A stretch of 33,862 nt of DNA, from the NCBI GenBank assembly GCA_963611905.1, contig CAVDTI010000063.1, positions 5,087-38,948 on the forward strand, written 5' to 3'. The position numbers and the translations under genes are program-made. The notes under the pieces were generated by a model. The model did no database searches. It was not told the origin of the DNA and saw only the letters and a program-made list of their open reading frames with translations. Origin of the DNA: Faecalibacterium prausnitzii. GTDB lineage: Bacteria > Bacillota_I > Bacilli_A > RFN20 > CAG-826. Within the stretch, counting starts at the first letter, position 1. Every line of letters starts with the position of its first letter. Of this stretch, positions 556-29,988 are shown one piece after another.

Positions 556-1047
556 TTAAGCCTTCTTGGAGAATAAGACCTTGCCGCCGATGAATAAATC
601 GATAACGGCAGCAACAGCAGAGCAAATTCCAGCAGCTAAGAAGCCCCAACCTAGCGAAACAGTTGATGCGCTTGGAAGAACAGAAACCCAAGTATTTCCA
701 ACAATAACACCAGATAAGAAGAAGAGAAGAGCGCAAACGAATGCAATAATTCCAGTTAAGAAATTAAAGAAGGCACCAACTTTTCCTCCAAAGAAACCAG
801 TAACGCTTCCAACGATGCCAAAGAACGCACCGATTAAAAGAAGAACAAACCATGCGATCATCGAACCATATGGATCAATGATTTGAAGAGCATCGTTTCC
901 GAAAACAAAGTCGTAACCAGCAGCAGCTTCACTAAATGAACCGGCTTTAGCAACAAGGCCATCACCTAATGGGAACAAGAGAGCTCCAGCAATGGCTAGT
1001 ACAGCAAGAACACTAAGTATTCCTGATAATAATGATTTCTTTTTCAT
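556..1047 (-). CDS. Hypothetical multi-pass membrane protein (Gly-rich TM helices)
   Basis: ORF 556..1056. The upstream in-frame start is a GTG that lies inside the GAGGTGA ribosome-binding site. The ATG at 1047 (MKKKSLLSG...) sits 5 nt after that site. The product is strongly hydrophobic. Confidence 0.6.
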   Translation of the reverse strand: MKKKSLLSGILSVLAVLAIAGALLFPLGDGLVAKAGSFSEAAAGYDFVFGNDALQIIDPYGSMIAWFVLLLIGAFFGIVGSVTGFFGGKVGAFFNFLTGIIAFVCALLFFLSGVIVGNTWVSVLPSASTVSLGWGFLAAGICSAVAAVIDLFIGGKVLFSKKA

Positions 1048-1074
1048 AACAGTCACCTCGAATGAACAACGATA

Positions 1075-6733: not shown

Positions 6734-6751
6734 ATTTTCTTCCCCCTTCCA

Positions 6752-7819
6752 TTATTTACGGCTACCCATACGAATACGTGGGTCAACAATGCCATAACTT
6801 AAATCTATGATTAAAGTAGCGAATAACCCAATAAGGGTATAAATCGCCATATCTACCATGACAACAGAATAGTCACGGTTTGTAATACCATCGACAAACA
6901 AGCGTCCGATACCTGGGATTTGATAAATCTGTTCAAGAACCATGGAGCCAGAAAGAATCGAAATAAATTCCGAAATAATCATAGGGACGATTGGAACCAT
7001 GGAGTTGCGGAGAGCGTGTCTAATAACACTTTGTCCGCGTGTAAGGCCTTTTGTTCTAGCTAAAACAAGGAATTCACTACCCATAACTTCGGTAAGCTCA
7101 GCTCTTGTATAACGAGCAAAAGAACAAATAGAGCCGAATGAAAGAGCCATAACAGGAATAATATAGCCCTTAAAAGCTAAAAGTGGGTCTGCTGCTGCTT
7201 GCGAGTCACTAGGCCAACTTGATGGGAATCCTGGAATTTGACGGAGCCACAAAAGCAAGAATGAAATCAAAACAAAGGATGGTACTGAGATAAAAATCAT
7301 GATGATTGTGGATATCAAAGTATCAACCCAAGTGTTTTTCTTCAAAGCGGCAAGAATGCCAAGTCCAATCCCCAAAGGAATAGAAAAAAGCATGGAGATG
7401 ATATTTAAACGCATCGAATAAGGAAGACGCATCATAATAATAGAGACGACATCTTGGTTAAAACCAATTGAGGAAGTTGATGTTCCCCAATCCCAACGAG
7501 TGATAACGTTAATTAACCACGCTCCATAGCGTTGTAAGATCGGATAAGGCAAATAATAATAGCTCTTTCCGTCTAAAACGACTGTCTGAACCGTGCTTCT
7601 TGCCGATTCAGACAATCCTAAATATGCTTTGTAATCGATTTCCTCATAGAAACCAAGTTCTACCTGGTGGTTCCAGAAGACGAACTTCTCAGCCGCCGAG
7701 TTAGAAGATGGTTCTAGAGGAAGTGTTTGTAAAAGGATGTAGGTTAAAGAGAGGATGATAAACGCAGTCAAAAGAATGAACAATACGCGTTGTATAAAGT
7801 ATCTAACTGAGTCTTTCAT
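6752..7819 (-). CDS. oppB: Oligopeptide ABC permease OppB
   Basis: Permease fold with an EAA-type loop (LARTKGLTRGQSVIRHALRNSMVPIV). Positioned between oppA and oppC. Confidence 0.85.
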   Translation of the reverse strand: MKDSVRYFIQRVLFILLTAFIILSLTYILLQTLPLEPSSNSAAEKFVFWNHQVELGFYEEIDYKAYLGLSESARSTVQTVVLDGKSYYYLPYPILQRYGAWLINVITRWDWGTSTSSIGFNQDVVSIIMMRLPYSMRLNIISMLFSIPLGIGLGILAALKKNTWVDTLISTIIMIFISVPSFVLISFLLLWLRQIPGFPSSWPSDSQAAADPLLAFKGYIIPVMALSFGSICSFARYTRAELTEVMGSEFLVLARTKGLTRGQSVIRHALRNSMVPIVPMIISEFISILSGSMVLEQIYQIPGIGRLFVDGITNRDYSVVMVDMAIYTLIGLFATLIIDLSYGIVDPRIRMGSRK

Positions 7820-7879
7820 TTTCCTTCTTTCCGTCTAGCTGTTTCTAGACTTTATAAATCCTAAAGGCTATAGCCTTAC

Positions 7880-10636
7880 TTATTTGGTGATTGGATCAAT
7901 GCCAAGTGAAGAGAGTTTTGCACTTGCGGTCATGATCATTGTTTTTGTCTTTTCACGAGTCGTTCCTGGATAAACCTTATAGACAAGATAGAACTGAACT
8001 GTGAAGGACGTGATTGGGTTTGTGGTGGTTGCCATTTGCTCACAATAAGCTTTGACAGTATTGAGAGGCATGCTGATAGAAACATAGCCGTTACCACTGT
8101 TAGTTGGTGAGCCAGCACCTTGGAAATAATATCCACCACTAATTGTACCAGCATCATTTTGTGGGAAGAATCCGAAGTCAGAGACGCCGGTGAAATCATA
8201 TTTATAGTTACCTATCTTATCATCTGTAACTAAGCCGGAATCTACATCTTTTTGGGTGTAAGTAGCTGCTTCTGGGCAATCGAAGGCAAATAAAATTTCA
8301 CTCTTTCCTGCAGTCATGCCTGTTGCTTCTTCTGTTTGATCAGGTCCAAGGAAGCGCATGTTGTTACCAAGAGATGTGGCAACACCACCTTGTGCGACAG
8401 TGAAACCTTGAGACATATTCCATAAGGCATCATAAGCCCAGTGTGCTTCGCTTCCATCTTCGTTTGTGCCGTAGACAACTGGGTTTTCAGACATATGATC
8501 TGTTGGTCTTCCCCAGTTCAAGCAGAAGCCTTGGTTAAGGGCGGAAGTTGAAGAACATGTGGACATGAAGTTGAGAGGATCGAGAACGTTACCAGTAATA
8601 GCACCTTCAGCGAAGTCGAATTCACCATGATCCATGACAGTATATGTATCGGTGTAAGAAGTTCCACCAACTTCGAGTTTGATTTCAAGAGTTAAACCAA
8701 GATCTTTACAAGCACGATTGAATGTGTCTGCAACGTCAGTTTTGATGTATTTACCAAGGTTGTCGATGGTGGATTGATAACGATATGTTCCTTGAATTTG
8801 GATTGTATCACCCGATTCATAATAGCCTTGTTTGATTAACTCTTCGCCAGCTTGCTTGAAGAAAGATTCGGCAACTGATTTGTTGTATCCATATTCGTTA
8901 CCAGCTGCTTCGGTAATTGAGTTGATAACAGCCTTACCTTCGTCAGATCCACGATATGTGACAGAACCAGTTGGGTCAATCATATAAGCATTAGATAAAT
9001 AGCCTAAAGCCGCTTTACGTCCTGCTGTTTCAGCAAGTGAAGCACGATCGATAGCGAAGTAGAAGCCACGGAGGAAGTTTTTGTTGGACATGATGTATTT
9101 GAGACCATTCCATTTACCAACACCCTTTTCCATTGCGCCTTCGCTGTGTTGATAAACCTTTCCCTTTGGTCCAAAGAAATAATTCCATTCTTCTTCGTTT
9201 GTTGTGTTGAGGTTGATTTTGATAATTGTTGAGCCTTCTGTTTGAAGAACTTTGTCAGAATGTTCTGCACGATAAGCAGGAAGATCTGTTTTCAAAGCAC
9301 TGATAGGAACTGTACATTCATCGAGTTTATTTTCTTTGAAGTCTCTCCATGCATCTTCGTCGGCTGTTGCAGAGTTGGTATATACCTTTTCAACATAGCC
9401 ATCGTAAGAATAACGATCAGCTGCAAAGTATTTTGTATTCTTCTCATAGATGAGTTCGGAATTGCTCTCCCATTCGACTGGTGTATAGGCGCCAAAGCAA
9501 AGGAAATAATCGAATGCGGAAGCACCAGTAGTACGAACACCATAGTTCTTAGCGCCACCAATGGCATTTAAGAATTTGTAAGGTAATGGGCTATAAAGAG
9601 AAGAGCTAAGAGAGGTACGTGCGCTTGAAACACCTTTTGCTTGGTTGAAGGTGAAGTCAATTGCGACATATTCTTTGCTAGATTTTTCCGTGTTGATTTG
9701 AATACCAACACCGGAATCCTCCCATTTATCGCCTTCGGAATGTGTTTTGTAAACGTATTCGTTTGCGCCAGCAATACCTGATGCATCGGAAACAAGATCT
9801 GAATAACGTGTTAAACGGTTATCAAGCATGGCTTTAAATGGAGTTATGTAATCTTCAGCAGAAACAGTAAGTCCATCATATTCGGAATTGGCCCATTTCG
9901 AACCAGGAACAGCTTGATAGGCATATCCTTCACCGATGTGAAGATAGACACGCCATTTTGTGGAAGTTTGTTCATTTGTTGGATTGCTAACTTCATTGCC
10001 ATTGATGTCGAGCATTGTTGGTGCGCTATCACGAGATAATTCGCCAACCCATCTATATCCAGATGACTCATTAGGATCCATAACAACACCGAAATATCCA
10101 GAAGAAATCATGCTGTGACGATCAGAAACATCAGAACCAGTTGAACTCCAACCATTGAACGTTCCAGAATCGGTATTTGTATAGGAGTGATAATAGCTTC
10201 TGTACTTTGCACGAGATTCAACTATTGAACCATTGTACATTTTACCTTCAACGTCCATTTTTCCTTCCATTGTGCCAAAACCATAGTTTGTGATGTATTT
10301 TTGTGATTTTGGTGTGACACGTTGAGAGATAGCGATTGACGAAGAATCATCATAAAGAGGGATTCCGCCAATGAAATTATCAACAGCATATTGTTCAAGA
10401 GCTGCAGTAATTTTTGTCTTTTCTTTCCATGTTAATTCTGAAAAGTCATCAGAACCAGTATAACCTTGTGGGTCGTTGATAATAGTTAATCCGTCTGCGT
10501 CTTTCTCTGATTCTTGGCCAGAATGGCTTGAAGAACTAGAACTATTGTTATTGTTCTCCGGACTACAAGAAGCAAGAGTAAAAGAAGCACCAATGACTAA
10601 CAAACCCATTAATTTTGTAAGTTTATTTACTTTCAT
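7880..10636 (-). CDS. oppA: Very large (918 aa) substrate-binding lipoprotein, OppA-like
   Basis: Signal peptide plus lipobox (FTLASC) followed by a Ser/Asn-rich linker. First gene of the opp operon. Family-5 SBP assignment rests on position and size and was not verified by alignment. Confidence 0.7.
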   Translation of the reverse strand: MKVNKLTKLMGLLVIGASFTLASCSPENNNNSSSSSSHSGQESEKDADGLTIINDPQGYTGSDDFSELTWKEKTKITAALEQYAVDNFIGGIPLYDDSSSIAISQRVTPKSQKYITNYGFGTMEGKMDVEGKMYNGSIVESRAKYRSYYHSYTNTDSGTFNGWSSTGSDVSDRHSMISSGYFGVVMDPNESSGYRWVGELSRDSAPTMLDINGNEVSNPTNEQTSTKWRVYLHIGEGYAYQAVPGSKWANSEYDGLTVSAEDYITPFKAMLDNRLTRYSDLVSDASGIAGANEYVYKTHSEGDKWEDSGVGIQINTEKSSKEYVAIDFTFNQAKGVSSARTSLSSSLYSPLPYKFLNAIGGAKNYGVRTTGASAFDYFLCFGAYTPVEWESNSELIYEKNTKYFAADRYSYDGYVEKVYTNSATADEDAWRDFKENKLDECTVPISALKTDLPAYRAEHSDKVLQTEGSTIIKINLNTTNEEEWNYFFGPKGKVYQHSEGAMEKGVGKWNGLKYIMSNKNFLRGFYFAIDRASLAETAGRKAALGYLSNAYMIDPTGSVTYRGSDEGKAVINSITEAAGNEYGYNKSVAESFFKQAGEELIKQGYYESGDTIQIQGTYRYQSTIDNLGKYIKTDVADTFNRACKDLGLTLEIKLEVGGTSYTDTYTVMDHGEFDFAEGAITGNVLDPLNFMSTCSSTSALNQGFCLNWGRPTDHMSENPVVYGTNEDGSEAHWAYDALWNMSQGFTVAQGGVATSLGNNMRFLGPDQTEEATGMTAGKSEILFAFDCPEAATYTQKDVDSGLVTDDKIGNYKYDFTGVSDFGFFPQNDAGTISGGYYFQGAGSPTNSGNGYVSISMPLNTVKAYCEQMATTTNPITSFTVQFYLVYKVYPGTTREKTKTMIMTASAKLSSLGIDPITK

Positions 10637-11335: not shown

Positions 11336-13525
11336 ATGATAAAGATAAGAAATAAATCTCTTGCATTACTAGTCCTCGCAGCCACCTCTCTTTGCACTTT
11401 AGCAAGCTGTGAAAAAAAACCAGATGCAAGCGACAATAGCTCTAGCTCAACCTCTTCACAAGCCTCGTCTTCTTCAACGAGCACTGCAGCTAAACCCGTC
11501 ACAACATTGAAAAGAAGCACCATCACAGCAGGTATGACCTTCGTTGATGGAGCAATTCCAAGCACAACCTACGTCAACCCTTCACGTGGTGATGATATAG
11601 ACTATGGAAATGGCGGAACTTTCACTCTAACCAACAAAGATGATGAATCCAAAACCTACGCAGGGGATGAACCTCTTCCTGCTGGCACATACACAGTTAA
11701 AGGCAGTTTTAATGCCGGTGGCGGACGTATTGTTTCTAACAGTTTTGAAATTGTTGTTAAAGCTGGCACAACCGACAAAGACAAGGGTGTTGATAAATCT
11801 GTCACAAAAGAATCCATGAAAGACTATAAATTCATGAATTTCCCAGGCATGGATACATTAGGTACAACAAATAGTGCCTCAGGATGCATGCCTTCTGTTG
11901 GCGAATCTCGCGTTCTTGTTATCCCTGTAGAATTCAAAAACACATGTTTTGGCACAATCACTCGCGACGGAAGCAAAACTGGCGACGCAAGATATGACAA
12001 ATCACAAGCTGATGAAGGTCGCGAAAAAGCAAGAGAAATGCTTCGCGAAGCCTTCTTTGCCGAAAATGACAAAACAAAAGAGGCTGGAGCAGATGGAAAA
12101 GTTGCCGATACAACTCCATGGGAATCCTTACATTCCTATTATAAGAAGGCTTCCTTCAACCAATTAAACATCACTGGTGCCGTTTCTCCAGTCTATATCT
12201 ATGACAAAGGCGATGGTTCTTCAACCGACTTTGATGCAACAAAATATTCTTCCTCTTTTGCTGGAAGCCTTGCAACCGAAGCTGTTAACTATTTTATAAA
12301 GAATCAAACAATCATTGATGGAAAAGTATTCGATCCAAAAGACTATGATGCTGATGGTGACGGATACATCGATGGTGTTGAAATGGTTTATGTTACAGAT
12401 AACCTTACTCCACAAGGAAACACCGATAGTTCTATTTGGTGGAACTACACAACTTCCACTAGTGCTTCCGCTTCAAAGTCATCTCCAACCCCACGCCGTA
12501 TTTTCTTCTCTCGTTGGGATTATTTGATCAACACCTACTATACAGGAGCTGATTATAGTAAATATGGAACACGTTGGAGCGATGGAAAAGCGGTCGACGC
12601 TCATACCATCGTTCACGAAACAGGCCATATGATGGGTGCTGCAGACTATTATTCCTATGATAAGACCGAAGGGCCTGCAGGTTCAGTCGATATGATGGAC
12701 AACAACGTTGGCGATCATAATGCATATACAAAGATGGCTTATGGTTGGCTTACTCCATGGGTTGTTGACTACACATCAAACGATTTTGAAATCACCTTGC
12801 CTTCCTACACTGATACAGGAAATTTCTTGATCGTTCCTGCAAGTGGACAAAAATGGAATGGAACACCTTGGGATGAATATGTCCTCATCGAATACTACAC
12901 TCCAACAGGTGTTAACGAAGACGACAGCGATGGCTATGAAGAATGGCAACAAGCTGGATCAAATGGTTCCTCTACTTATGGGCATGGCGGAACATATCGT
13001 CGTCCAGGCGTTCAAATGTTCCACGTCGATACCCGCGCTTCATCCATGAAGGGTTCTTCCAAATCAAGTGCAACACGTGACTATACCGATACACCAAAAG
13101 CGTATGATACAACAGATTCTAGTGGATATGAGTCAAGTGCAACACGCGTCCATACAAACACACCTAAATCAACTGGTCGTGCTTCAGTAGATGGCAAAAC
13201 TGGTGAATTAACACCATTCCGTGAGCTTCATGCAATCTACCCATCATCACAAAACTCATTAGATTCCTCTTCTTATTACAGCACATTCGGCTATATGTCT
13301 AACCTCTTCGGAACACAAGAGTATTTCGAATCGAATGGTGAAAAATATGGCGATCAACCTGATACAAAGTACGGTGCAGACTTCTTCTCGCCAAGCCGTA
13401 ACCAAAATTTCTTCCCTAACAAGACGAATTTTGACAACGGAAAACCATTTGGTTGGTCTATTCAAATAACCGAACAAACTGATACATCAGTTACTCTCCA
13501 TTTTGTTAACAATCTTGCTGAATAA
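11336..13525 (+). CDS. Surface lipoprotein with an M6 (immune inhibitor A-like) zinc metalloprotease domain
   Basis: RBS AAGGAG. Lipobox CTLASC followed by a Ser-rich linker. HETGH zinc motif at nt 12614-12628 within HTIVHETGHMMGAADYYSYD. Upstream strings VLVIPVEF and DADGDGYIDGVEMVY resemble InhA/M6 family proteins. Confidence 0.7.
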   Translation: MIKIRNKSLALLVLAATSLCTLASCEKKPDASDNSSSSTSSQASSSSTSTAAKPVTTLKRSTITAGMTFVDGAIPSTTYVNPSRGDDIDYGNGGTFTLTNKDDESKTYAGDEPLPAGTYTVKGSFNAGGGRIVSNSFEIVVKAGTTDKDKGVDKSVTKESMKDYKFMNFPGMDTLGTTNSASGCMPSVGESRVLVIPVEFKNTCFGTITRDGSKTGDARYDKSQADEGREKAREMLREAFFAENDKTKEAGADGKVADTTPWESLHSYYKKASFNQLNITGAVSPVYIYDKGDGSSTDFDATKYSSSFAGSLATEAVNYFIKNQTIIDGKVFDPKDYDADGDGYIDGVEMVYVTDNLTPQGNTDSSIWWNYTTSTSASASKSSPTPRRIFFSRWDYLINTYYTGADYSKYGTRWSDGKAVDAHTIVHETGHMMGAADYYSYDKTEGPAGSVDMMDNNVGDHNAYTKMAYGWLTPWVVDYTSNDFEITLPSYTDTGNFLIVPASGQKWNGTPWDEYVLIEYYTPTGVNEDDSDGYEEWQQAGSNGSSTYGHGGTYRRPGVQMFHVDTRASSMKGSSKSSATRDYTDTPKAYDTTDSSGYESSATRVHTNTPKSTGRASVDGKTGELTPFRELHAIYPSSQNSLDSSSYYSTFGYMSNLFGTQEYFESNGEKYGDQPDTKYGADFFSPSRNQNFFPNKTNFDNGKPFGWSIQITEQTDTSVTLHFVNNLAE

Positions 13526-13713: not shown

Positions 13714-15630
13714 ATGAAATCGAAATTAAAGACTCTCGCATTAGCAGTTATGCTTGGTGTTACGGGTATTGGAGTGGTTGGTTGCACGCCTGATTTACAT
13801 CCAGACGAGGAAAAAGAATCTTCATCAAGTGATAGCCGTGCATTTAACATTTGGTTTGACACTGAACTCACCAAACAAAACGGAAAATTAGAAATCGCAG
13901 TTGGCCAACGTTATTTGCTTTGGAAACACATTTCCGTTCCAAATGGAACATATGTTCTTGAAGCAAAAACAGATAACGTCACAATCGACAATCACGTTAT
14001 CGAAGCAACCGCAACAGGCGCTTTCAAAGTAAGCATTACCGCAACTTCCAACGAAGGAAAGAAGACAACAAAAACATTAAGCGGAACAATCATCACCGAA
14101 GAAAAGGCCGCTTTCAATAGGCTTTGGGACAAAATGGCCGAAACAGATAATTACAAAGCAACTGGTGACGTTTTTGGCGAAACAATTCATTATGGCTCAG
14201 AAAAAGCTTATGAATATCTTGCAGGAACAAATAGCTCAGGAAAGAGCGTCTACTATGGTGATGTCTATGATTCAAAGACAAAGCATTGGTATTCTTATGG
14301 CTACGTTGTCGGAGATTCCGAATTAACGTTTAATGGTGGCTATGGATTAGATGCAGAATCATTCGGTCTCGTTGCCGGTTTAACGGATATCGGAGCATAC
14401 CAATGGACTGAACTTACCGACGCAAGCGGTAATGGCACTGGCAAATTCTATCTCGAAGATTCAATCAGCACTTCTAACGGATATAAATATTCAGACGTTA
14501 TTAGCCCACTCTTTGATACAATCTATGGTTCTTTAAACAATGTTTGGGAAAGCATTTTGACAAGAAGTCTTTCCGCAACAGGCGTTGTTGCAACCGTTGA
14601 TTCCGATGATAATTCAATCACCCTCACACCAGTCGACAAAGACAAAAAGGATATTGACACCTACAAATCCTCTTCCTCTAATTATAGCCTTCTTACTGTA
14701 ATCAGTGGCGTCGGCGAAACCACAAATAGTTATGTTGATGAATGGATCAAAACTCCATCATATCCAGAAGCAGTTGATATCAATGGTTTAAAATCAGCCT
14801 TCAAGAGCATCGAAGAAAAGAAGAACTACACCATGACAACGATTGCAGCCTGGGTTAATACCTCAACAGAAAAAACAGTTGATGCTCCAGAAAATTTAGC
14901 TGAGGTTTTTGAGCCATTTATCTCTACAGTTATGGTTGATGATGACATGAAGGTCGATGTCGTTAACTATTCATCCTCAAATCAATGGAACTTCCTCAAC
15001 GCTGCCGGTCTTGATTCAACGTTCCTTGGCGACGATTCTGAATGGAAAATGCCTGAAGCCGGTGACGTTACAACAAGCTTCATCAAAGATGGCAAATATT
15101 CTCAAGTCACTGGTAAGGTCGGAGATGATCAAACAATAACTTATGGTGATGTTGCTACTGGCAAAGATCTTACTTCCTTATGGGGTCACTATCAACAAAG
15201 CGACGGAACAGCCGCTCTTCCACTTGTTACCGAAGGACTTGGTGACATATTAGACACAGTCTCATTCACAAGCACACGCAGTGTTGGCGACACAGATGCA
15301 TATTATTTCAATACATGTGGCGATGATTACAACGATACATACAAGATCCTTTCTTGGTCAACAGGAGCCATTGTTGGTGGTATCTGCCCATGGATCTATG
15401 CCGAAAATTCAGACTTCCTTGCACTTAATATGAAAGCAATCATGTCTTATGGCTTTGGCAGAGTTGGCGCTGAACTTTATTTCAATACCTACTTCACCGT
15501 CGAAGATGGCGAGATCACTTTAAACGAAGTTCTTAGCTATGACCGCTCTACAGCTTTTATCATGACAACAAGCTGGTCTGATATCGGCACAACAGTATTA
15601 GACCCTGCATCCCAAGCACTTCTTGCTTAA
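13714..15630 (+). CDS. Hypothetical surface lipoprotein (638 aa)
   Basis: RBS AAAGGGA. Signal peptide with lipobox VVGC and a Ser/Glu linker. Candidate own promoter TTTACA-N16-TATGGT near 13615-13642. No family recognised. Confidence 0.7.
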   Translation: MKSKLKTLALAVMLGVTGIGVVGCTPDLHPDEEKESSSSDSRAFNIWFDTELTKQNGKLEIAVGQRYLLWKHISVPNGTYVLEAKTDNVTIDNHVIEATATGAFKVSITATSNEGKKTTKTLSGTIITEEKAAFNRLWDKMAETDNYKATGDVFGETIHYGSEKAYEYLAGTNSSGKSVYYGDVYDSKTKHWYSYGYVVGDSELTFNGGYGLDAESFGLVAGLTDIGAYQWTELTDASGNGTGKFYLEDSISTSNGYKYSDVISPLFDTIYGSLNNVWESILTRSLSATGVVATVDSDDNSITLTPVDKDKKDIDTYKSSSSNYSLLTVISGVGETTNSYVDEWIKTPSYPEAVDINGLKSAFKSIEEKKNYTMTTIAAWVNTSTEKTVDAPENLAEVFEPFISTVMVDDDMKVDVVNYSSSNQWNFLNAAGLDSTFLGDDSEWKMPEAGDVTTSFIKDGKYSQVTGKVGDDQTITYGDVATGKDLTSLWGHYQQSDGTAALPLVTEGLGDILDTVSFTSTRSVGDTDAYYFNTCGDDYNDTYKILSWSTGAIVGGICPWIYAENSDFLALNMKAIMSYGFGRVGAELYFNTYFTVEDGEITLNEVLSYDRSTAFIMTTSWSDIGTTVLDPASQALLA

Positions 15631-17006: not shown

Positions 17007-18467
17007 TTACTTCTTTTTTATCTTTTCAAGTCTTTCTAAATCGGCAAGTTTGAGTTGGAAGGAAGAAACATCTTTTGTATTAAGTTTCTTCAATCTTTCT
17101 TTTTGCTTCTTTATCTCTTGAAGAGATTTATCCTTAGGATAGTTTGGGTTGTTGAGATTTGCATTGAGTACACGATCTGCGACGATTGCTTCGTTAAGTA
17201 AACTCTTATTGGAAGAATTTCTTACTACTGCAACACGCTCATCTTTAGTGTTTTTCTTCTTTGCTTCTCCAACAACAAGAATAATCCCCTCAGGTATTGC
17301 AGAGGAAGATCCACCTGATGTTGAGCCTTTAACCTTAACGACTTTAATCTTTTTCTTAGAAAGAGATTCGTCTTTAATTACAGGTTTTTCTTTCTCTTTT
17401 ACTGGTGCTGGCTTCTTCTCTTTTATTGGAGATGAAAGCTTTTTGTTGGTCTTATTTTCTTTAGAAGAATTCTTCAAGATTGAAACAGAGTATTCATTTC
17501 CTTTTTCGAATGAATATACAATTCCACCTTTAGAATAGGTGAAGTTTCCTTTTTTAGAAGAAAGAGCATCAACATTAACCAAGTCTTCCATAGTAAGATT
17601 CAATTCGCCGTGAACTTCAGGAACGTAAGGAACACTAGCGTCTCTGACGATTGAATGATAATTCAACGCGAGACGTTTTAGGGCTTCGCTAGCCTTCTTT
17701 CCCTTAGTTATGATGGTTTGTTGTTGAACTGGTGCGGGAGTTTCTTTCTTTTTCTCTTTTTGAGAGGATTTTGTTGAAAGAAGTTCCGCTTTCTTTTTGA
17801 GAAGATCTTCTTTTTGGAAATGAAGTTTTAGATCTGCTAAAGATTCTTTTCCAATCAAAGTTCTTTGTGCCTTGGTAAGAGGCGTTTCTTTTTTGTCTTT
17901 TTCTACTTTCTGAAAAGACGAAGCGTCATGTTTCTTGTTAAAAGGTTTTTCGCTATTTTCGCCAGGATTTTTTTCTAATTCCGATTGTTGATTCAAACGA
18001 TATACACTGAGATATCTCCCCTTCTGTGAATCAAGCTTGTTTAATTTCAATAAATCCGTTGTTAAGGTTTTGTCTTGGGTGATAACAAGGATTTTATTAT
18101 GAATCCGTAAGCTAGAAACTTTTGTGAATATGGCATTATCCGCAAAGGAATCGCCATCACATTTAGTAATTGTTAATGTTTTAGAACGCCACTTATCATG
18201 CTTGATGATTTTTAATGCCCTAGTCGCAGCAATTCTACTCGAAATACGCTCTTTGTCTTTTTCTTTTGAGTGTTTCTTAAGTTCTTCCAAACATTCGCCA
18301 AGAACAATTACTTGCAATTCATCTCTCCAATATTCTTTTGAGGACGTTAAGCGATCCATGAATAATGGGAATGAGTCTTCCATCAAGGAACATGTATCCA
18401 CGAAAACATAGTCATAATCGTTTAAGAATTTCGCTAAGTTCGAGGATTTCAATTCCTCTTGATACAT
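17007..18467 (-). CDS. PIN-like (PIN_4-type) nuclease domain protein with a long Lys-rich C-terminal extension
   Basis: The N-terminal roughly 160 aa carry the PIN acidic signature in order: VFVDTCS, VLGECLEEL, DSFADNAIF, VITQDKTL. The remaining roughly 320 aa are Lys/Glu/Ser-rich low complexity with two short globular-looking stretches. Confidence 0.6.
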   Translation of the reverse strand: MYQEELKSSNLAKFLNDYDYVFVDTCSLMEDSFPLFMDRLTSSKEYWRDELQVIVLGECLEELKKHSKEKDKERISSRIAATRALKIIKHDKWRSKTLTITKCDGDSFADNAIFTKVSSLRIHNKILVITQDKTLTTDLLKLNKLDSQKGRYLSVYRLNQQSELEKNPGENSEKPFNKKHDASSFQKVEKDKKETPLTKAQRTLIGKESLADLKLHFQKEDLLKKKAELLSTKSSQKEKKKETPAPVQQQTIITKGKKASEALKRLALNYHSIVRDASVPYVPEVHGELNLTMEDLVNVDALSSKKGNFTYSKGGIVYSFEKGNEYSVSILKNSSKENKTNKKLSSPIKEKKPAPVKEKEKPVIKDESLSKKKIKVVKVKGSTSGGSSSAIPEGIILVVGEAKKKNTKDERVAVVRNSSNKSLLNEAIVADRVLNANLNNPNYPKDKSLQEIKKQKERLKKLNTKDVSSFQLKLADLERLEKIKKK

Positions 18468-26122: not shown

Positions 26123-27232
26123 TTATCTCTCCAAAGATTCAAATAAGTCTTTTGCTGCAACGATGGCATCATCCATATCAAAATACTTGTATAAAGCAAG
26201 ACGCCCCAAGAAATAAACGTGTCCATCCAGTTTCTTCGCTTCATCAAGATATTTCTTAGCTAAAGAGTTATTCTTTTCATCATTAACAGTATAGTAAGGA
26301 ATCTTTCCATCAGAATATGAGTCTGGATATTCCTTGCTAATAATCGTGGAATGGTGGTTTTCGCAATATGGGTCAAAATGCTTATGTTCGCTAATTCTTG
26401 TATAACCGACATCTTTTGAAGTGTAATTAACAACTGGATTGGATTGATAATCATCTACATCTAATGTTTCAGTTTCAAAACGAAGAGAACGCCACTCCAA
26501 CTTGCCATAGCAATAATTGAAGAATGAATCCAATTGTCCAGTATAAATAATTGTTTTAGCTAAGGAAGCATATTTTTCCTTATCTTCTAGATAATCGACG
26601 TTGTATCTAATTTCAATGCCTTTAGCAATGTTGTTCGCAAAAACGGAATATCCACCTTTTGGTAAGCCTTGGTAGATATCATTGAAGTAATTGTTGTTAT
26701 ATTCAAAACGCAACGGAAGACGTTTGATAATTGAAGCAGGCAACTCTTTACAATCTCTTCCCCATTGTTTTTCCGTATATTCCTTAATGAGTTTTGTGTA
26801 GACAGTTCTTCCAACCATGCTTAAGGCTTGTTCTTCTAAGTTTTTAGGCTCTTTTATACCTTCTTTTTTGATTTCTTCAGCAATTTTTGCTTTTGCTTCT
26901 TCTGGTGTATTAACTCCCCAAAGTTCATGGAAAGTATTCATGTTAAACGGAAGATGATAACGCTCGCCACGGTAATTGGCGATTGGTGAATTGATAAACG
27001 GATAAACCTCGGAATATTTATTGAAAAAAGACCAAGCAAAATCATCAGAAGTATGGAAAATATGTGGTCCGTAAGTGTGGACGATAATTCCATCTCTCAC
27101 ATCTGTAGCAATATTGCCTCCTAGATGATCTCTTTTTTCAAGAACAAGGACTTTTTTACCTGCATCGGTTAATAATCTAGCGATGGTAAGTCCACTTAAA
27201 CCAGCGCCTACAATTAAATAATCGTAACTCAT
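26123..27232 (-). CDS. glf: UDP-galactopyranose mutase
   Basis: Full-length resemblance to E. coli Glf as recalled: YDYLIVGAGLSG, GPHIFHT, LPFNMNTFH, YTEKQWG, RFEYNNNYF, EHKHF, YYTVND, GRLA.YKY.DM. Confidence 0.9.
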   Translation of the reverse strand: MSYDYLIVGAGLSGLTIARLLTDAGKKVLVLEKRDHLGGNIATDVRDGIIVHTYGPHIFHTSDDFAWSFFNKYSEVYPFINSPIANYRGERYHLPFNMNTFHELWGVNTPEEAKAKIAEEIKKEGIKEPKNLEEQALSMVGRTVYTKLIKEYTEKQWGRDCKELPASIIKRLPLRFEYNNNYFNDIYQGLPKGGYSVFANNIAKGIEIRYNVDYLEDKEKYASLAKTIIYTGQLDSFFNYCYGKLEWRSLRFETETLDVDDYQSNPVVNYTSKDVGYTRISEHKHFDPYCENHHSTIISKEYPDSYSDGKIPYYTVNDEKNNSLAKKYLDEAKKLDGHVYFLGRLALYKYFDMDDAIVAAKDLFESLER

Positions 27233-27461
27233 GAAAATATTTTAGCATTAAGCATTTACCGACAAAAGATAGGTTTAAAAAACATTTTTTAACAATAGTA
27301 AATTAACTACAAATATCTATCTATTTTCCATGTTTTTATATTCCTATTATAGTACTCATTTATATGTATAGATTATATAAGAATATAAAGCTCTAAACCT
27401 TAAGAGAGAAATGACAAAAACATTCGATATTATCGATATTTCTAATAGTAAAAGTAAGCAT

Positions 27462-27497
27462 TATTTTCTTTATAGAAAGGCTGCTAAAATTTATAAT
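27462..27497 (+). promoter_or_regulatory. Candidate promoter for the plus-strand RNA island
   Basis: Two overlapping -10 candidates: TGcTAAAAT (27482-27490, extended -10) and TATAAT (27492-27497). The second has TTTATA 17 nt upstream. The GC-rich segment begins 6-10 nt downstream. Confidence 0.45.
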
Positions 27498-27581
27498 TTT
27501 AAGGTGCCTAAACTTTGTTCTTTGGGCACACGGGAAACTTTGACCCCCTAGAGCCTAGCGCTCTTAAGGAGGTTAAGCGAT

Positions 27582-27656
27582 ATGCTGAAAAAGTATGTTA
27601 AAAAAGCCGCCATAATCATACTTATAACGGCTTTTGCTCTTGCATTGGTCGAATAG
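27582..27656 (+). CDS. Possible 24-aa hydrophobic small protein (MLKKYVKKAAIIILITAFALALVE)
   Basis: Consensus SD AAGGAGG (27566-27572) lies 9 nt upstream of the ATG. The peptide has a Lys-rich N-terminus followed by one TM-length hydrophobic stretch. It lies inside the GC-rich RNA island, so it could be fortuitous. Confidence 0.3.
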   Translation: MLKKYVKKAAIIILITAFALALVE

Positions 27657-28058
27657 TCTGATGCAAAGTGGCCCGGGCTTCCCGCCTACTATCCGATTTA
27701 TAAGGCGCGATCAACAAAGGGTCAAGCCAGGAAGGAGGAAGCCAATAGACCGGCGGAAAATGCGAAATAAAAGCGCCTAACCCCTACTATAAAAGAGTGG
27801 CGCAAGATTAAGAGAGGCTTTCTATAGTGGCTGAGAGGGCAAAAGAAGCCCTAAACATCGCCATTAAGATTGCAGCCTTAAATAACAGCGATATTAGAGC
27901 TCATCAAAGCAACTAAAGAGCAACACAAAGGACCGGATAGCATCAATGGGCGAGCGCCCCCGACCCTTAAGAGGCCATTTTACAAGATCCGCAAATAAGA
28001 AAAGCCTAAATAACAAGAAATCGCACGTAAAACTCAATTATTTTTACTACTTAAAATA

Positions 28059-28086
28059 CCCAGCCACCGTGGCTGGGCATCTTTTG
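28059..28086. terminator. Bidirectional terminator (S41 peptidase gene on the minus strand; candidate ncRNA on the plus strand)
   Basis: CCCAGCC-ACCGT-GGCTGGG with TTTTGTT downstream on the plus strand and TATTTT downstream on the minus strand. Confidence 0.75.
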
Positions 28087-28096
28087 TTATGCAGTC

Positions 28097-29911
28097 TTAT
28101 TTGCTTTCAACGAAAGCTGCAAGAGACTTATTATCGTAGAAATATGCGCGTTCTAGAGTATAGTCTGGTTGAATGCCATCATCATTATCTTTAAATGATC
28201 CGTCGGCTTGTTTTGTGGATAAACGAGCAATGCCAGATATTTGACATGCAACACCATCGGCAGTCGTTGTAGAACGAACAACACACGCTCCGCCACCGCT
28301 CTTTTCACCAATGATTTTAGCAAGGTTGTTTTCCTTACAAACAGTTGGGAATAAATTTGCACAAGAGAATGAGTAATTAGATGTTAGAACATAGAATTTG
28401 TAATTTGACTTAACATCTTTTGTATCGAATTTTCCATCAAGGTTCGTATCGACAGAATAATGAAGTGTTGTCTTACTTCCAGTAAGTGGGCAATAAGAAT
28501 TAATCTTTACATCGTTTGTTAAGAAACCAAGTAAAGCAATACATGCATCGGCAGCTCCACCACCATTAAGCGATAAGTCGATAACAACGTTTTCGATTGT
28601 ATCGATGCTTTCGATCTTTTTCATATAAGTATAGAACATAGCAAACGAATCTAATGAAGCATAGGTAGAAATAGTTGATGGGCTAAAGTCGCTCATGTAA
28701 TTAGAAACGAACGAATCAAAACGAATGATTGCTGTTTTGTTATAAGTGCTAAAAGCGGAAATTGTATCTCCAAGATGTGTTTTACGAATTGTGGATAATT
28801 CCGTGGCATTTCTAGAAAGAGATAAAAGTCTATCCGAATATGCGCTCGAATCAATATTGTTATTTCCATCTCCAAAGACAGAGGAGAAAGGTCTTACACC
28901 AGTATGTCCGTCACCCAAAACTCCAAATAACAATTCATTAAGCGCAGCTTGATAAGTATCATTATCAGAAGATTTTAGATTTTTCTTTAATGATGGGTGC
29001 GCCTTGCTTACTGCAGAACTACTTAGATATGCATCTAATGGGGCAATGTTCTTATCAGCAAAGCCATAGAGATAATCGATTTTGAAACAAAGGGAATTGT
29101 AATTAAAAAGCGAATAATCCGCACTTCTTCCTTTTTTACTCAAAGAACCGTGATAGAAATCATATCCATATGTGGAAAATGTGTCTTTGGTGCCTGGCTT
29201 AAGGAACATATCAGAGTTGATAACATAGAAATCATCTCCATTGTAAGCAAAAGGCAATCCTAAATTTTCAAGAAAAATATCTGAAGCAACGGCAAAAGGA
29301 ATATAAACATCTTTATCGTAACCGATAACATCAAGAGAGTGACTCTTAAGATCAAAAGATGTTGTTTTTCCTGCGGTATATTCTGTAGGATTTGTCTCAC
29401 TATATTTGAGATAACTCATCTTTCCTCTTGCGGCACTTTCTGCAAGCGTAGAAATGCCATTTATCTGGTTATAATTTATAACCATTGTCGTATATTTATC
29501 ATAATCTTCAAAAGTAATGGTATCGTTAACCGAGTCAATAGTCATAGGATAAGTAACCTTACTTGAAGTAACGATGTTATAGGTATAGACATCGTTTTTA
29601 ACGTTTACGCTTACGGTTGAATTTTCTGGCCCTAGAATGGTCGTAAGAGAATTCATGCTTACATAAGGAACATCACCAATCGTACGATAATCCAACTTAT
29701 ATCCTGCAGCAATTTCACCACCGATAACATCGTTATTCATCGCTAATCCATACATAAGCCTTCCTTGCTTAATGCTAGATAGATCGCTTGCTTGTTTATC
29801 TGAATGAGAGGTAGTTTGGCTACTTCCGATAATGTCATATATATTTAAGTTGCAGCCTGCTAATAAACAAGAACCTAGCAAAGGGAACAACAATGCAAAT
29901 TTCTTTTTCAT
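28097..29911 (-). CDS. Lipoprotein with a C-terminal S41-like peptidase domain
   Basis: Start trimmed to MKKKFALLF (GGAGG 7 nt upstream). Lipobox LLAGC. The C-terminal strings VIDLSLNGGGAADA, SNYSFSCANLF and GEKSGGGA resemble the S41 DxRxNxGG, Ser and GxxxxG motifs, but the Lys motif is atypical. Confidence 0.55.
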   Translation of the reverse strand: MKKKFALLFPLLGSCLLAGCNLNIYDIIGSSQTTSHSDKQASDLSSIKQGRLMYGLAMNNDVIGGEIAAGYKLDYRTIGDVPYVSMNSLTTILGPENSTVSVNVKNDVYTYNIVTSSKVTYPMTIDSVNDTITFEDYDKYTTMVINYNQINGISTLAESAARGKMSYLKYSETNPTEYTAGKTTSFDLKSHSLDVIGYDKDVYIPFAVASDIFLENLGLPFAYNGDDFYVINSDMFLKPGTKDTFSTYGYDFYHGSLSKKGRSADYSLFNYNSLCFKIDYLYGFADKNIAPLDAYLSSSAVSKAHPSLKKNLKSSDNDTYQAALNELLFGVLGDGHTGVRPFSSVFGDGNNNIDSSAYSDRLLSLSRNATELSTIRKTHLGDTISAFSTYNKTAIIRFDSFVSNYMSDFSPSTISTYASLDSFAMFYTYMKKIESIDTIENVVIDLSLNGGGAADACIALLGFLTNDVKINSYCPLTGSKTTLHYSVDTNLDGKFDTKDVKSNYKFYVLTSNYSFSCANLFPTVCKENNLAKIIGEKSGGGACVVRSTTTADGVACQISGIARLSTKQADGSFKDNDDGIQPDYTLERAYFYDNKSLAAFVESK

Positions 29912-29988
29912 CTTTTTTCCTCCATAATTCGTTAAATTATGAGTTTCCATTAAACAAATTACAACTTTATTTTTATTTCTAATAAAAA

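What the first reader, a model, noticed from the sequence alone, without database searches (positions are those of the whole stretch)
27462..28090. GC-rich, ORF-poor island of about 580 nt, antisense to both neighbours: candidate large structured ncRNA
Directly seen: my hand count gives 231 G+C in 500 nt (about 46%) for 27501-28000. The spacer at 27241-27300 is about 23%, and coding DNA here looks clearly lower than 46% by eye. No long ORF exists on either strand; the 82-aa ORF 27946..28194 merely runs antisense into the peptidase gene. Promoter-like elements (TGcTAAAAT and TATAAT at 27482-27497) sit 6-10 nt before the composition jump. A strong hairpin with a T-tract at 28059-28086 closes the unit, predicting a transcript of about 580 nt. 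Both flanking genes (glf and the S41 lipoprotein) are on the opposite strand, so this is not their UTR. Hand-found helices with G-U pairs valid only on the plus strand are 27504-09/27524-29 and 27796-802/27859-65. Further local stems are 27602-09/27628-35, 27703-08/27773-78 and 27836-40/27848-52 (loop AAAAGAA). Long-range candidates are 27561-69/27965-73 (9 bp), 27689-95/27934-40 (7 bp) and 27634-41/27916-23 (8 bp). Inference: GC-rich intergenic islands in AT-rich genomes are usually structured RNAs. I could not match this one to RNase P, tmRNA, SRP, 6S or a riboswitch class. Its length is close to that reported for ROOL-type ornate large RNAs, which occur in Firmicutes, Tenericutes and rumen samples. 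I cannot confirm family membership from memory, so it may be unclassified.
Basis: partly seen in the sequence, partly recalled or inferred. Interest (0 to 1): 0.8.

Follow-up and report, generated by a model that had tools for sequence, protein, structure and literature searches.

The report
Small-peptide gene with antisense RNA
The GC-rich "island" is probably not a giant ornate non-coding RNA; it looks like a small inserted module found in only two related lineages, carrying a tightly folded mRNA for a 24-residue hydrophobic peptide and a predicted ~94-nt antisense RNA, which is the layout of a type I toxin-antitoxin pair.

Summary
Positions 27501-28000 are 46.2% G+C (231/500), against 21-24% in the spacer and about 36% in the window. 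There is no long ORF. A conserved promoter and a terminator bracket a plus-strand unit of about 583 nt.

The interpretation as a ROOL-like large ncRNA does not hold. No Rfam family matches. Only one diverged homologue exists (L001, 73% identity). Five syntenic relatives have a 40-105 bp gap there instead, so the island is a lineage-specific insertion of about 0.8 kb. Only 27498-27830 is conserved above the neutral rate and has conserved structure.

It has a consensus Shine-Dalgarno (SD) ribosome-binding site, and both the SD and the AUG are locked in conserved hairpins. On the minus strand there is a near-consensus promoter (27725->27697) and an intrinsic terminator (27635->27596). Together they predict a 94-nt antisense RNA over the ORF.

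Best reading: a type I toxin-antitoxin-like module (confidence 0.45). Expression and toxicity are untested, and the conserved core 27726-27830 is unexplained.

The parts
27276..28096 (.). Lineage-specific insertion between the S41 peptidase stop and the glf promoter. Boundaries are approximate.
   Evidence: Five syntenic relatives (L003, L005, L008, L009, L010) have only 40-105 bp between the peptidase and glf. Similarity to L003 resumes only at the glf promoter, about 27233-27275.
27285..27468 (.). AT-rich left part of the insertion (21-24% GC). It contains the inverted repeat 27335-47/27377-89 and the start of a 33-nt stretch identical in L001 (27447-27479, which runs on into the sense promoter's -35). 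Role unknown, possibly regulatory DNA for the sense promoter.
   Evidence: 81-90% identical to L001, against about 68% at third codon positions.
27469..27497 (+). Sense promoter: -35 TTTATA (27469-74), 17-nt spacer, -10 TATAAT (27492-97). Predicted start about 27502-27504.
   Evidence: 10/12 consensus matches. Both hexamers are identical at the aligned position in L001.
27504..27529 (+). 5'-terminal hairpin of the sense RNA (GUGCCUAAA/UUUGGGCAC).
   Evidence: MFE folds of both species. In L001 a U-A pair becomes U-G, which is valid only on the plus strand.
27531..27684 (+). Closing helix 27531-40/27675-84 (CGGGAAACUU/GGGCUUCCCG). It encloses the SD, the ORF and three internal hairpins.
   Evidence: Alifold consensus and independent MFE folds of the window and L001. 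It contains U-G pairs valid only on the plus strand.
27541..27575 (+). SD-sequestering hairpin. The anti-SD UGACC-C-CCU (27541-49) pairs with the SD AAGGAGG (27566-72) and flanking bases.
   Evidence: Changes in L001 are G-U to A-U and C-G to U-G, so pairing is kept.
27582..27656 (+). Small ORF of 24 codons plus stop: MLKKYVKKAAIIILITAFALALVE. The AUG lies in a hairpin (27579-27599) and the stop codon lies in the loop of hairpin 27636-46/27660-72.
   Evidence: It is the only SD-preceded small ORF conserved in both lineages. L001 encodes MYKSILKKAVIMLVITALALALLD, with the same length and no indels. Codon-position identity is 0.76/0.84/0.64. In a simulation of 19 random substitutions, P(ORF intact) = 0.16 and P(intact and still hydrophobic) = 0.004. 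GRAVY is 1.4-1.6.
27596..27635 (-). Intrinsic terminator T3 of the predicted antisense RNA: a 14-bp hairpin (27635->27602) followed by U6 (27601->27596). It lies inside the ORF.
   Evidence: dG -17.1 kcal/mol, z -5.1. The stem is continuous only on the minus strand, where U-G pairs replace the C-A mismatches seen on the plus strand. The hairpin and U6 are both kept in L001.
27597..27690 (-). Predicted antisense sRNA of about 94 nt, complementary to codons 6-24, the stop codon and 34 nt downstream.
   Evidence: It is defined by the conserved promoter and terminator. Both species fold into the same three-hairpin shape (L001 z -4.7).
27697..27725 (-). Antisense promoter: -35 TTGACC (27725->27720), 17-nt spacer, -10 TATAAA (27702->27697). 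In L001 the -10 is TATAAT.
   Evidence: 11/12 consensus matches in L001 and 10/12 in the window, at aligned positions. The hexamers are 11/12 conserved while the spacer is only 8/17 conserved at constant length (Fisher p = 0.016).
27726..27830 (.). Conserved GC-rich core, unexplained. It holds an SD-like AAGGAGG (27732-38) and an outer helix 27736-43/27816-23 that is best on the plus strand. It also holds an inner hairpin 27773-27803 with a C-rich loop (CCCC 27781-84). That hairpin is better paired on the minus strand and is followed there by UUUUAUUU (27772->27765), giving terminator-like T2.
   Evidence: 83-90% identity to L001. SCI 0.93 against 0.54 in shuffles, z -4.4. T2 has dG -13.8 and z -2.95, and the scan calls it a terminator in L001.
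27831..28058 (+). Unconstrained 3' tail of the sense transcript.
   Evidence: 66.5% identity and 9 gap columns, which is the neutral level. SCI 0.24, equal to shuffles, z -0.7. GC has drifted to 37% in L001, against 42% in the window.
28059..28086 (+). Terminator T1 (8-bp GC-rich hairpin plus U-tract), shared back to back with the convergent S41 peptidase gene.
   Evidence: In L001 one G-C pair became A-U and one C-G pair became U-G, and the latter is valid only on the plus strand.

Best explanation
The island is a self-contained sense/antisense module with the layout of a type I toxin-antitoxin locus. It was inserted between the S41 peptidase gene and glf in the common ancestor of two closely related lineages, probably Erysipelotrichaceae-like.

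Predicted from sequence signals (no expression data):
- A plus-strand promoter (27469-97) starts an mRNA at about 27503.
- The first 190 nt of that mRNA fold into a closed five-helix domain.
- That domain has a 5'-terminal hairpin, an anti-SD/SD hairpin, a hairpin over the AUG, a hairpin inside the ORF and a hairpin holding the stop codon. A long-range helix closes them all.
- The domain encodes a 24-residue peptide with a basic N-terminus and a 15-residue hydrophobic stretch.
- A convergent minus-strand promoter (27725->27697) and an intrinsic terminator (27635->27596) predict a 94-nt antisense RNA. It is fully complementary to the 3' three-quarters of the ORF and the 34 nt after it.

Inferred:
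- The folded mRNA is translationally inert.
- The antisense RNA pairs with it. This either triggers double-strand-specific cleavage or stabilises the closed form, and it keeps the membrane-active peptide from being made.
- Convergent transcription may add interference.
- The sense transcript runs on through a conserved core of unknown role and about 225 nt of unconstrained sequence to the terminator it shares with the peptidase gene.
For: Insertion and narrow distribution:
- Five relatives with identical gene order lack the island.
- It is found only in the window, in a Logan contig differing at one base (L023), and in L001.

ORF:
- The SD AAGGAGG lies 9-10 nt before the ATG in both lineages, and both encode 24 codons with no indels.
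- Replacements are conservative and hydrophobic. Joint preservation has p of about 0.004 under random substitution.

Translation lock:
- The SD and the AUG are both paired in independent folds of both species, with the same architecture (z -5.1 and -6.4).
- The consensus-energy z is -8.7.

Antisense unit:
- The best promoter match in the region lies on the minus strand: 11/12 in L001 and 10/12 in the window. It sits at aligned positions with a diverged spacer of constant length.
- The terminator hairpin is continuous only on the minus strand, has U6 in both species, and has dG -17.1.
- The predicted sRNA has the same three-hairpin fold in both species.

Strand mosaic of wobble pairs:
- Most helices are valid only on the plus strand.
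- The two hairpins followed by U-runs on the minus strand (T3 and T2) are the ones valid only on the minus strand.

Fit to the published definition:
- Published ranges are toxin 20-60 aa and antisense RNA 60-200 nt, with an anti-SD stem-loop and a 5' stem-loop (PMC8594479).
- Patchy, narrow distribution is typical of the class (PMC12390103).
Against: - There are no expression data for either strand and no test of toxicity.
- Only two independent sequences exist, so most pairs are invariant and covariation is thin: 5 compensatory pairs out of 104.
- Strand-blind structure tests score both strands alike.
- The peptide matches no known toxin family.
- Its hydrophobic stretch of 15 residues is short for a transmembrane helix. 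It looks as much like a bare signal peptide.
- The sense RNA would be about 583 nt, above the 150-400 nt usual for type I toxin mRNAs.
- The most conserved block, 27726-27830, has no role in the model.
- The window's antisense -10 is TATAAA rather than TATAAT.
- RNA-structure constraint inside the ORF confounds the coding-conservation test.
Confidence: 0.45

Rival explanations
1. Peptide-signal or dual-function RNA locus. The 24-residue product is not a toxin. It would be a signal-peptide-like precursor of a secreted peptide, as in enterococcal prgQ with its convergent Anti-Q RNA. Alternatively the transcript acts both as an mRNA and as a base-pairing regulator, as in staphylococcal RNAIII with hld. 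In that case the C-rich loop at 27781-84 would bind ribosome-binding sites of other mRNAs.
For: The peptide has a basic N-terminus, a 15-residue hydrophobic core and nothing after it. By my recollection this resembles pheromone or inhibitor precursors of 21-24 residues. The promoters are convergent, with predicted starts about 187 nt apart, and the small ORF lies between them. That is the prgQ/prgX geometry as I recall it. The ORF sits at nt ~79-153 of a ~583-nt RNA, much as hld sits in RNAIII. A conserved hairpin presents a CCCC loop, and two anti-SD-like and two SD-like motifs are conserved. An Opp peptide importer is present in the window.
Against: No receptor or regulator gene of the RRNPP/Rgg/PrgX kind lies next to the module, and no agr-like genes do either. 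The insertion carries no protein gene at all. Rfam RNAIII and other sRNA models do not match. The region 3' of 27830 is unconstrained. Opp transporters are general. The resemblance to pheromone precursors rests on my memory and was not tested here.
Confidence: 0.2
2. Decaying remnant of foreign DNA. The 0.8-kb insert is a leftover of a horizontally acquired piece whose higher G+C has not yet ameliorated. The promoter, ORF and hairpins would then be fortuitous or no longer used.
For: It is an insertion absent from five syntenic relatives. It has no homologue anywhere else that I could search. The 3' 225 nt evolve at the neutral rate and have lost G+C in L001. Codon usage in the ORF is atypical for this genome.
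Against: After about 30% neutral divergence, both promoters, the SD, the start, the stop, the reading frame and all three terminators are intact in both lineages. Positions 27498-27830 are 75-90% identical and keep 45-49% G+C in both. Structure conservation is far above shuffles. Six-frame translation finds no protein relative that would mark a dead gene.
Confidence: 0.15
3. One reading: one large (~580 nt) structured non-coding RNA of a new or ROOL-like class. The small ORF and the antisense signals would be incidental.
For: High G+C in an AT-rich genome, with its own promoter and terminator. Plus-strand MFE z is -4.9. Structure is conserved in the first 330 nt. The sequence is A-rich, like many structured RNAs.
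Against: No Rfam family matches at gathering score, and nothing relevant appears at E<=10. The 3' 40% has no conserved structure or sequence. Long-range helices are not conserved. The ORF with its SD is preserved better than chance allows. The element is confined to two lineages, whereas known ornate large RNAs are widespread.
Confidence: 0.1

Closest known systems
Type I toxin-antitoxin systems of Bacillota (for example txpA/RatA, bsrG/SR4, fst/RNAII; Ibs/Sib in Enterobacteria)
   Same: A small hydrophobic peptide ORF of 24 aa. A highly folded mRNA with a 5' stem-loop and an upstream anti-SD that sequesters the SD. A cis-encoded convergent antisense RNA of about 94 nt with its own promoter and intrinsic terminator. 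A small, self-contained module with patchy, lineage-specific presence. These match the features listed in PMC8594479.
   Different: No sequence match to any known toxin or antitoxin family. The sense transcript is predicted to be about 583 nt rather than 150-400 nt. A conserved 105-nt GC-rich core downstream has no counterpart. The peptide's charge sits at the N-terminus and its hydrophobic stretch is short. Toxicity and RNA expression are untested.
prgQ / Anti-Q (pCF10) and iad (pAD1) pheromone-inhibitor loci of Enterococcus (comparison from my own knowledge)
   Same: A 21-24-residue signal-peptide-like ORF near the 5' end of a several-hundred-nt RNA. Convergent promoters about 200 bp apart. 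A ~100-nt antisense RNA overlaps the sense transcript.
   Different: No PrgX/TraA-type receptor gene and no downstream conjugation genes. The locus is chromosomal, between housekeeping genes. No sequence similarity was found.
RNAIII / hld of Staphylococcus (Rfam RF00503)
   Same: An RNA of about 0.5 kb with a 24-26-codon ORF about 80 nt from the 5' end. A C-rich hairpin loop could pair with ribosome-binding sites.
   Different: No match to the Rfam model. No agr genes nearby. The 3' third is unconstrained, whereas the 3' domain of RNAIII is its most conserved regulatory part (my own knowledge).
ROOL, GOLLD, OLE, raiA and other large ornate bacterial RNAs
   Same: A GC-rich intergenic island in an AT-rich Bacillota-like genome, with length near 0.6 kb.
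   Different: No covariance-model match. It contains a conserved translatable ORF. Only about 330 nt are constrained. It is restricted to two lineages.

Membership tests
ROOL / GOLLD / OLE / raiA / HEARO / RNase P / tmRNA / SRP / 6S / group I-II introns (Rfam 15) | Match to the family covariance model at or above its gathering score | tested here: not met
   cmscan of the whole window on both strands gave 0 matches at gathering score. At E<=10 on 27200-28300, the only matches were weak ones (8.5-18.4 bits, far below gathering) to unrelated small families.
Large ornate structured ncRNA (general kind) | Conserved, covarying architecture along the whole length, and no conserved coding potential | tested here: not met
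   27831-28058 has SCI 0.24, equal to shuffles, and neutral-level identity. Long-range helices decay in L001. The conserved SD-led 24-codon ORF is described.
Type I toxin-antitoxin system | Small (20-60 aa), usually hydrophobic, toxin ORF | tested here: met
   24 aa, GRAVY 1.4-1.6, mean hydropathy 3.0 over residues 9-23. It is conserved in length and character in L001.
Type I toxin-antitoxin system | Sequence signals for a cis-encoded antisense RNA of 60-200 nt overlapping the toxin mRNA | tested here: met
   The conserved minus-strand promoter is TTGACC-17-TATAAA/T at 27725->27697. The conserved minus-strand-optimal terminator with U6 is at 27635->27596. Together they predict a 94-nt RNA. This rests on sequence signals only.
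Type I toxin-antitoxin system | Toxin mRNA folded so that the SD is sequestered (anti-SD stem-loop, 5' stem-loop) | tested here: met
   Searches show the same architecture in both species. z is -5.1 and -6.4.
Type I toxin-antitoxin system | Toxin mRNA length of 150-400 nt | tested here: not met
   The only plus-strand terminator is at 28059-28086, giving about 583 nt. Processing to a shorter form cannot be assessed.
Type I toxin-antitoxin system | The peptide is toxic, and the antisense RNA is expressed and neutralises it | not testable with these tools
   This needs expression experiments and strand-specific transcriptomics.
Known type I toxin / antitoxin families (Pfam, NCBIfam, Rfam) | Profile or covariance-model match | tested here: not met
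   The peptide gives no Pfam or NCBIfam hit at E<=10. No antitoxin RNA family matches in Rfam.
prgQ/Anti-Q-type peptide-pheromone locus | Adjacent cognate receptor or regulator gene (PrgX/TraA, RRNPP family) | tested here: not met
   The neighbours are glf, PMI, ROK, the S41 peptidase, a CBS protein and an ECF-S component. The insertion carries no protein gene of 50 aa or more.

The most novel reading that the evidence does not exclude
The ~330-nt conserved part (27498-27830) could be a new kind of bifunctional RNA locus. A structured RNA would both encode a membrane or secreted micro-peptide and, through its conserved core (SD-like tract, C-rich loop, strand-mosaic hairpins), regulate other mRNAs or proteins, with its own antisense partner. 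That would be an RNAIII- or prgQ-like regulatory hub in an uncultured Erysipelotrichaceae-like gut bacterium, acquired as a mobile cassette.
Probability: 0.15. Interest if true: 0.6.

Novelty: new member of a known kind. Interest (0 to 1): 0.35.

Why it matters
If the model is right, this adds an unrelated toxin/antitoxin sequence family to type I systems. These systems are hard to find by homology and are reported from few phyla (PMC12390103). The host here is an uncultured gut or rumen lineage. The case also shows how such a module lands as a bare 0.8-kb cassette between housekeeping genes and borrows a neighbour's terminator.

Methodologically it is a caution. A GC-rich, ORF-poor island in an AT-rich genome need not be a large ornate RNA. 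Overlapping sense and antisense RNAs plus a micro-ORF give the same signature. The practical impact is modest until transcripts and toxicity are shown.

Tried and rejected
**Known RNA families.** Rfam was searched at gathering score and at E<=10 and gave nothing relevant.

**Second copy in the window.** The bin 501-1000 has similar composition, but it is a 166-aa membrane-protein gene on the minus strand.

**Homologue hunting:**
- blastn against phages and plasmids gave nothing.
- The genome-contig scan via the peptidase gave L001 (has the island) and L002 (no island).
- Five viral contigs pattern scans gave only chance hits in high-GC contigs.
- The single metagenome scan with AGGAGGAAGCCNNNNGACCGGCGG gave 10 chance hits and no homologue. 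That pattern was too GC-rich and too short to be a good use of the only scan.
- The 46-aa ORF that gene callers report (27411-27551) has no relative among 1.84 billion representative proteins.
- Exact look-ups of that ORF and of glf returned only one near-identical Logan contig.

**Decayed protein gene.** A six-frame translation of 27498-28060 against 5.8 billion proteins gave no hit at E<=10. Only the 8000 candidates sharing the most words were scored.

**MITE or terminal inverted repeats, or a 5'-3' closing helix.** The arms 27437-57/28038-58 give duplex z -3.0 in the window but +0.6 in L001, so I rejected this.

**Tandem duplication of the toxin module in the 3' part.** The local alignment is no better than shuffles, with 83 of 300 scoring at least as well.

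**Other small ORFs.** MRNKSA in the window and the 22-aa ORF in L001 after the SD-like tract are not conserved.

**Other minus-strand promoters.** I looked for one in 27830-28058 that could feed terminator T2. None is conserved (and inspection).

**Strand assignment.** Consensus folding energy does not discriminate between strands. The assignment rests on promoters, U-tracts, the SD/ORF and the direction of wobble pairs.
Full report
**1. The observation**

The island is real. The upstream spacer is 21-24% and the window averages about 37%. The segment is also A-rich (35% A).

The flanking genes are UDP-galactopyranose mutase (glf, 26123-27232) and a 617-aa S41-family peptidase (28097-29950). 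Both are on the minus strand. No ORF longer than 48 aa lies wholly inside the island.

A promoter-like site TTTATA-17-TATAAT ends at 27497, and a GC-rich hairpin with a T-tract lies at 28059-28086. The plus strand folds better than its shuffles (z -4.9). The minus strand does so less clearly (z -2.0).

**2. Known RNA families**

Rfam 15 gives no match at gathering score anywhere in the window. At E<=10 on 27200-28300 there are only weak matches (8.5-18.4 bits, far below gathering) to unrelated small families. ROOL, GOLLD, OLE, raiA, HEARO, RNase P, tmRNA, SRP, 6S, RNAIII and the intron models are therefore excluded as far as covariance models can tell.

**3. Distribution: a lineage-specific insertion**

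A search through the neighbouring peptidase found one diverged copy of the island in L001. That contig is 36% G+C, labelled as an Alistipes bin, and its peptidase is 89% identical. A near-identical copy lies in a Logan contig, with 1 mismatch in 864 nt.

Five further relatives have peptidases 52-61% identical to the window's. All keep exactly the same gene order: Na/Pi transporter, ECF-S component, hypothetical protein, CBS protein, S41 peptidase, glf, PMI, ROK. In all five the peptidase and glf are only 40-105 bp apart. An Erysipelotrichaceae MAG (L002) also lacks the island.

Similarity between the window and L003 resumes only at the glf promoter. Roughly 27276-28096 is therefore an insertion gained in the common ancestor of the window lineage and L001.

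Nothing similar was found elsewhere:
- phages and plasmids
- viral contigs
- the one metagenome scan I could run

A six-frame translation has no protein relative among 5.8 billion sequences, so a decayed protein gene is unlikely.

**4. How much of it is constrained**

Between the window and L001, third codon positions of seven flanking genes are 63-72% identical. I take this as the near-neutral level.

| Region | Identity to L001 |
|---|---|
| Island RNA overall (27498-28058) | 73% |
| 27498-27830 | 75-79%, with blocks at 83-90% |
| 27831-28058 | 66.5%, with nine gap columns |

G+C stays at 45-49% in both species up to 27830. In the tail it has drifted to 42% in the window and 37% in L001.

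Column-shuffle tests of the two-sequence alignment give these results:

| Region | Consensus-energy z | SCI | SCI in shuffles |
|---|---|---|---|
| 27498-27690 | -8.7 | 0.67 | 0.43 |
| 27693-27830 | -4.4 | 0.93 | 0.54 |
| 27831-28055 | -0.7 | 0.24 | 0.24 |

A 21-nt complementarity between 27437-57 and 28038-58 is not supported in L001. So about 330 nt are constrained, not 580, and nothing ties the two ends into one architecture.

**5. A conserved micro-ORF in a locked mRNA**

Scanning both species for SD-preceded small ORFs gives exactly one shared hit. The SD AAGGAGG (27566-72) lies 9 nt before the ATG at 27582. Twenty-four codons follow, with the stop at 27654-56.

| Lineage | Peptide |
|---|---|
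| Window | MLKKYVKKAAIIILITAFALALVE |
| L001 | MYKSILKKAVIMLVITALALALLD |

The two ORFs have the same length and no indels despite 19 differences in 75 nt. In-frame identity by codon position is 0.76/0.84/0.64.

I simulated 19 random substitutions using the island's own substitution spectrum. These keep the start, frame and stop in 16% of trials. They also keep an uncharged core of equal hydropathy in 0.4% of trials. RNA-structure constraint on the same bases confounds this test, so it should be read with that caveat.

Independent MFE folds of the first ~190 nt of both species give the same architecture (z -5.1 and -6.4):
- a hairpin at the very 5' end (27504-29)
- a closing helix (27531-40/27675-84)
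- an anti-SD/SD hairpin (27541-75)
- a hairpin over the AUG (27579-99)
- a hairpin inside the ORF (27602-35)
- a hairpin with the stop codon in its loop (27636-72)

One-sided changes in these helices are wobble changes valid on the plus strand. The ORF uses codons that are rare in this genome: ATA three times, GCC twice, ACG and CTG. These fall where the stems need them. The peptide matches no Pfam or NCBIfam family.

**6. An antisense unit**

The best promoter match in the region is on the minus strand. It reads TTGACC-17-TATAAT in L001 (11/12) and TTGACC-17-TATAAA in the window (27725->27697, 10/12), at aligned positions. The two hexamers are 11/12 conserved. The 17-nt spacer is only 8/17 conserved but keeps its length (Fisher p = 0.016).

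About 55 nt downstream of the predicted start (~27690), the hairpin inside the ORF reads on the minus strand as a continuous 14-bp stem. The two C-A mismatches of the plus strand become U-G pairs there. The stem has dG -17.1 and z -5.1, and it is followed by U6 in both species.

This predicts a 94-nt antisense RNA (27690->27597). In both species it folds into a 5' hairpin, a middle hairpin and a terminator. It is complementary to codons 6-24, the stop codon and 34 nt beyond.

A second hairpin (27773-27803) is also better paired on the minus strand, and UUUUAUUU follows it there. In L001 the scan calls it a terminator. It lies just upstream of the antisense promoter and could shield it from read-through coming from the peptidase gene. 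That role is my inference.

The terminator at 28059-77 shows the opposite bias. In L001 it carries a wobble pair valid only on the plus strand, which argues that the sense transcript does reach it.

**7. Interpretation**

The layout has these elements:
- a small hydrophobic ORF
- an mRNA with a 5' stem-loop and a nearby anti-SD
- a convergent cis-antisense RNA of about 94 nt with its own promoter and terminator
- all of this in a small cassette with patchy distribution

These are the features used to define and annotate type I toxin-antitoxin systems (PMC8594479; PMC12390103). I commit to that reading with confidence 0.45.

The sequence signals and their conservation are shown. Three steps are inferred: that both RNAs are made, that the peptide is membrane-toxic, and that the antisense RNA blocks its synthesis by pairing, by RNase III-type cleavage or by reinforcing the closed fold.

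Points that do not fit:
- The sense RNA would be about 583 nt.
- The most conserved block, 27726-27830, has no assigned role. It contains an SD-like AAGGAGG, a C-rich loop and an outer helix best on the plus strand.
- The peptide looks as much like a bare signal peptide as like a toxin.

**8. Rivals**

- A peptide-signal or dual-function RNA locus of the prgQ/Anti-Q or RNAIII/hld kind shares the geometry. It lacks any receptor or agr-like partner gene nearby. Confidence 0.2.
- A functionless remnant of foreign DNA fits the insertion, the orphan status and the neutral tail. It does not fit the intact promoters, SD, ORF and terminators after about 30% neutral divergence. Confidence 0.15.
It fails on sections 2, 4 and 5. 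Confidence 0.1.

**9. Verdict**

The ROOL-like interpretation is only partly supported: there is a structured plus-strand transcript, but it is not a large ornate ncRNA. The most likely identity is a new member of a known kind (type I toxin-antitoxin-like), seen in two lineages only. Interest is moderate to low (0.35). The conserved core and the AT-rich, highly conserved upstream segment remain unexplained and keep a small chance of something more unusual.

Noticed in passing
window 27233-27262 (minus strand); L003 5870-5900, L008/L010 5830-5856: glf appears to be leaderless. A -10 box (TAAAAT here, TATAAT in the relatives) ends just 6 nt before the ATG in the window, L001 and the island-lacking relatives L003, L008 and L010. 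No SD is present.
   Followed up: partly
window 27335-27347 / 27377-27389: An AT-rich inverted repeat (13-nt arms, 92% complementary, 29 nt apart) sits inside the inserted spacer. It is also present in L001 (TTATATTCCTAT/ATAGGAATATAA). No U-tract follows on either strand, so it may be a protein-binding site. A 3-mismatch copy of the left arm occurs at 12128-12145.
   Followed up: partly
window 27447-27479 and 27815-27826: Thirty-three consecutive bases upstream of and overlapping the sense -35 are identical in L001, more conserved than any part of the RNA. They contain the near-palindrome CTTTATAGAAAG. Its half TATAGAAAG is exactly complementary to CTTTCTATA at 27818-26, in the conserved core (repeat I9). 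Both are invariant, so the data cannot separate an RNA pairing from two DNA sites for one regulator.
   Followed up: partly
L001 (CAVKFY010000087.1): This contig is deposited in a bin named Alistipes communis. It is about 36% G+C, 85-89% identical to the window over 11.7 kb, and syntenic with Erysipelotrichaceae-like MAG contigs. It is probably mis-binned.
   Followed up: partly
window 27411-27551 (+): A 46-aa ORF spanning the sense promoter and 5' hairpin is called as a gene in a Logan assembly. It has no SD, is truncated to 33 aa in L001, and has no relative among 1.84 billion representative proteins. It is almost certainly a spurious call.
   Followed up: yes
window 1851-10636 (minus strand): An oligopeptide ABC transporter operon has unusually long components: a 918-aa solute-binding protein and a 698-aa OppC-like permease. 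From my own knowledge, such enlarged Opp proteins are typical of Mollicutes-like lineages.
   Followed up: no
window 556-1056 (minus strand): This bin has island-like composition (42% G+C, strong A excess on the plus strand). It is a 166-aa hydrophobic protein gene with no Pfam match, followed by a hairpin terminator near 520-535.
   Followed up: partly
L022 4327-4380: The Logan contig of the L001-like strain ends 53 nt after the peptidase stop, right at the shared terminator hairpin. The assembly breaks at the island edge, which may indicate strain heterogeneity for the insertion or low coverage.
   Followed up: no
window 11336-13525, 13714-15630 (+), 17007-18467 (-): Three large ORFs (729, 638 and 486 aa) have no Pfam match at E<=1e-5.
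   Followed up: no
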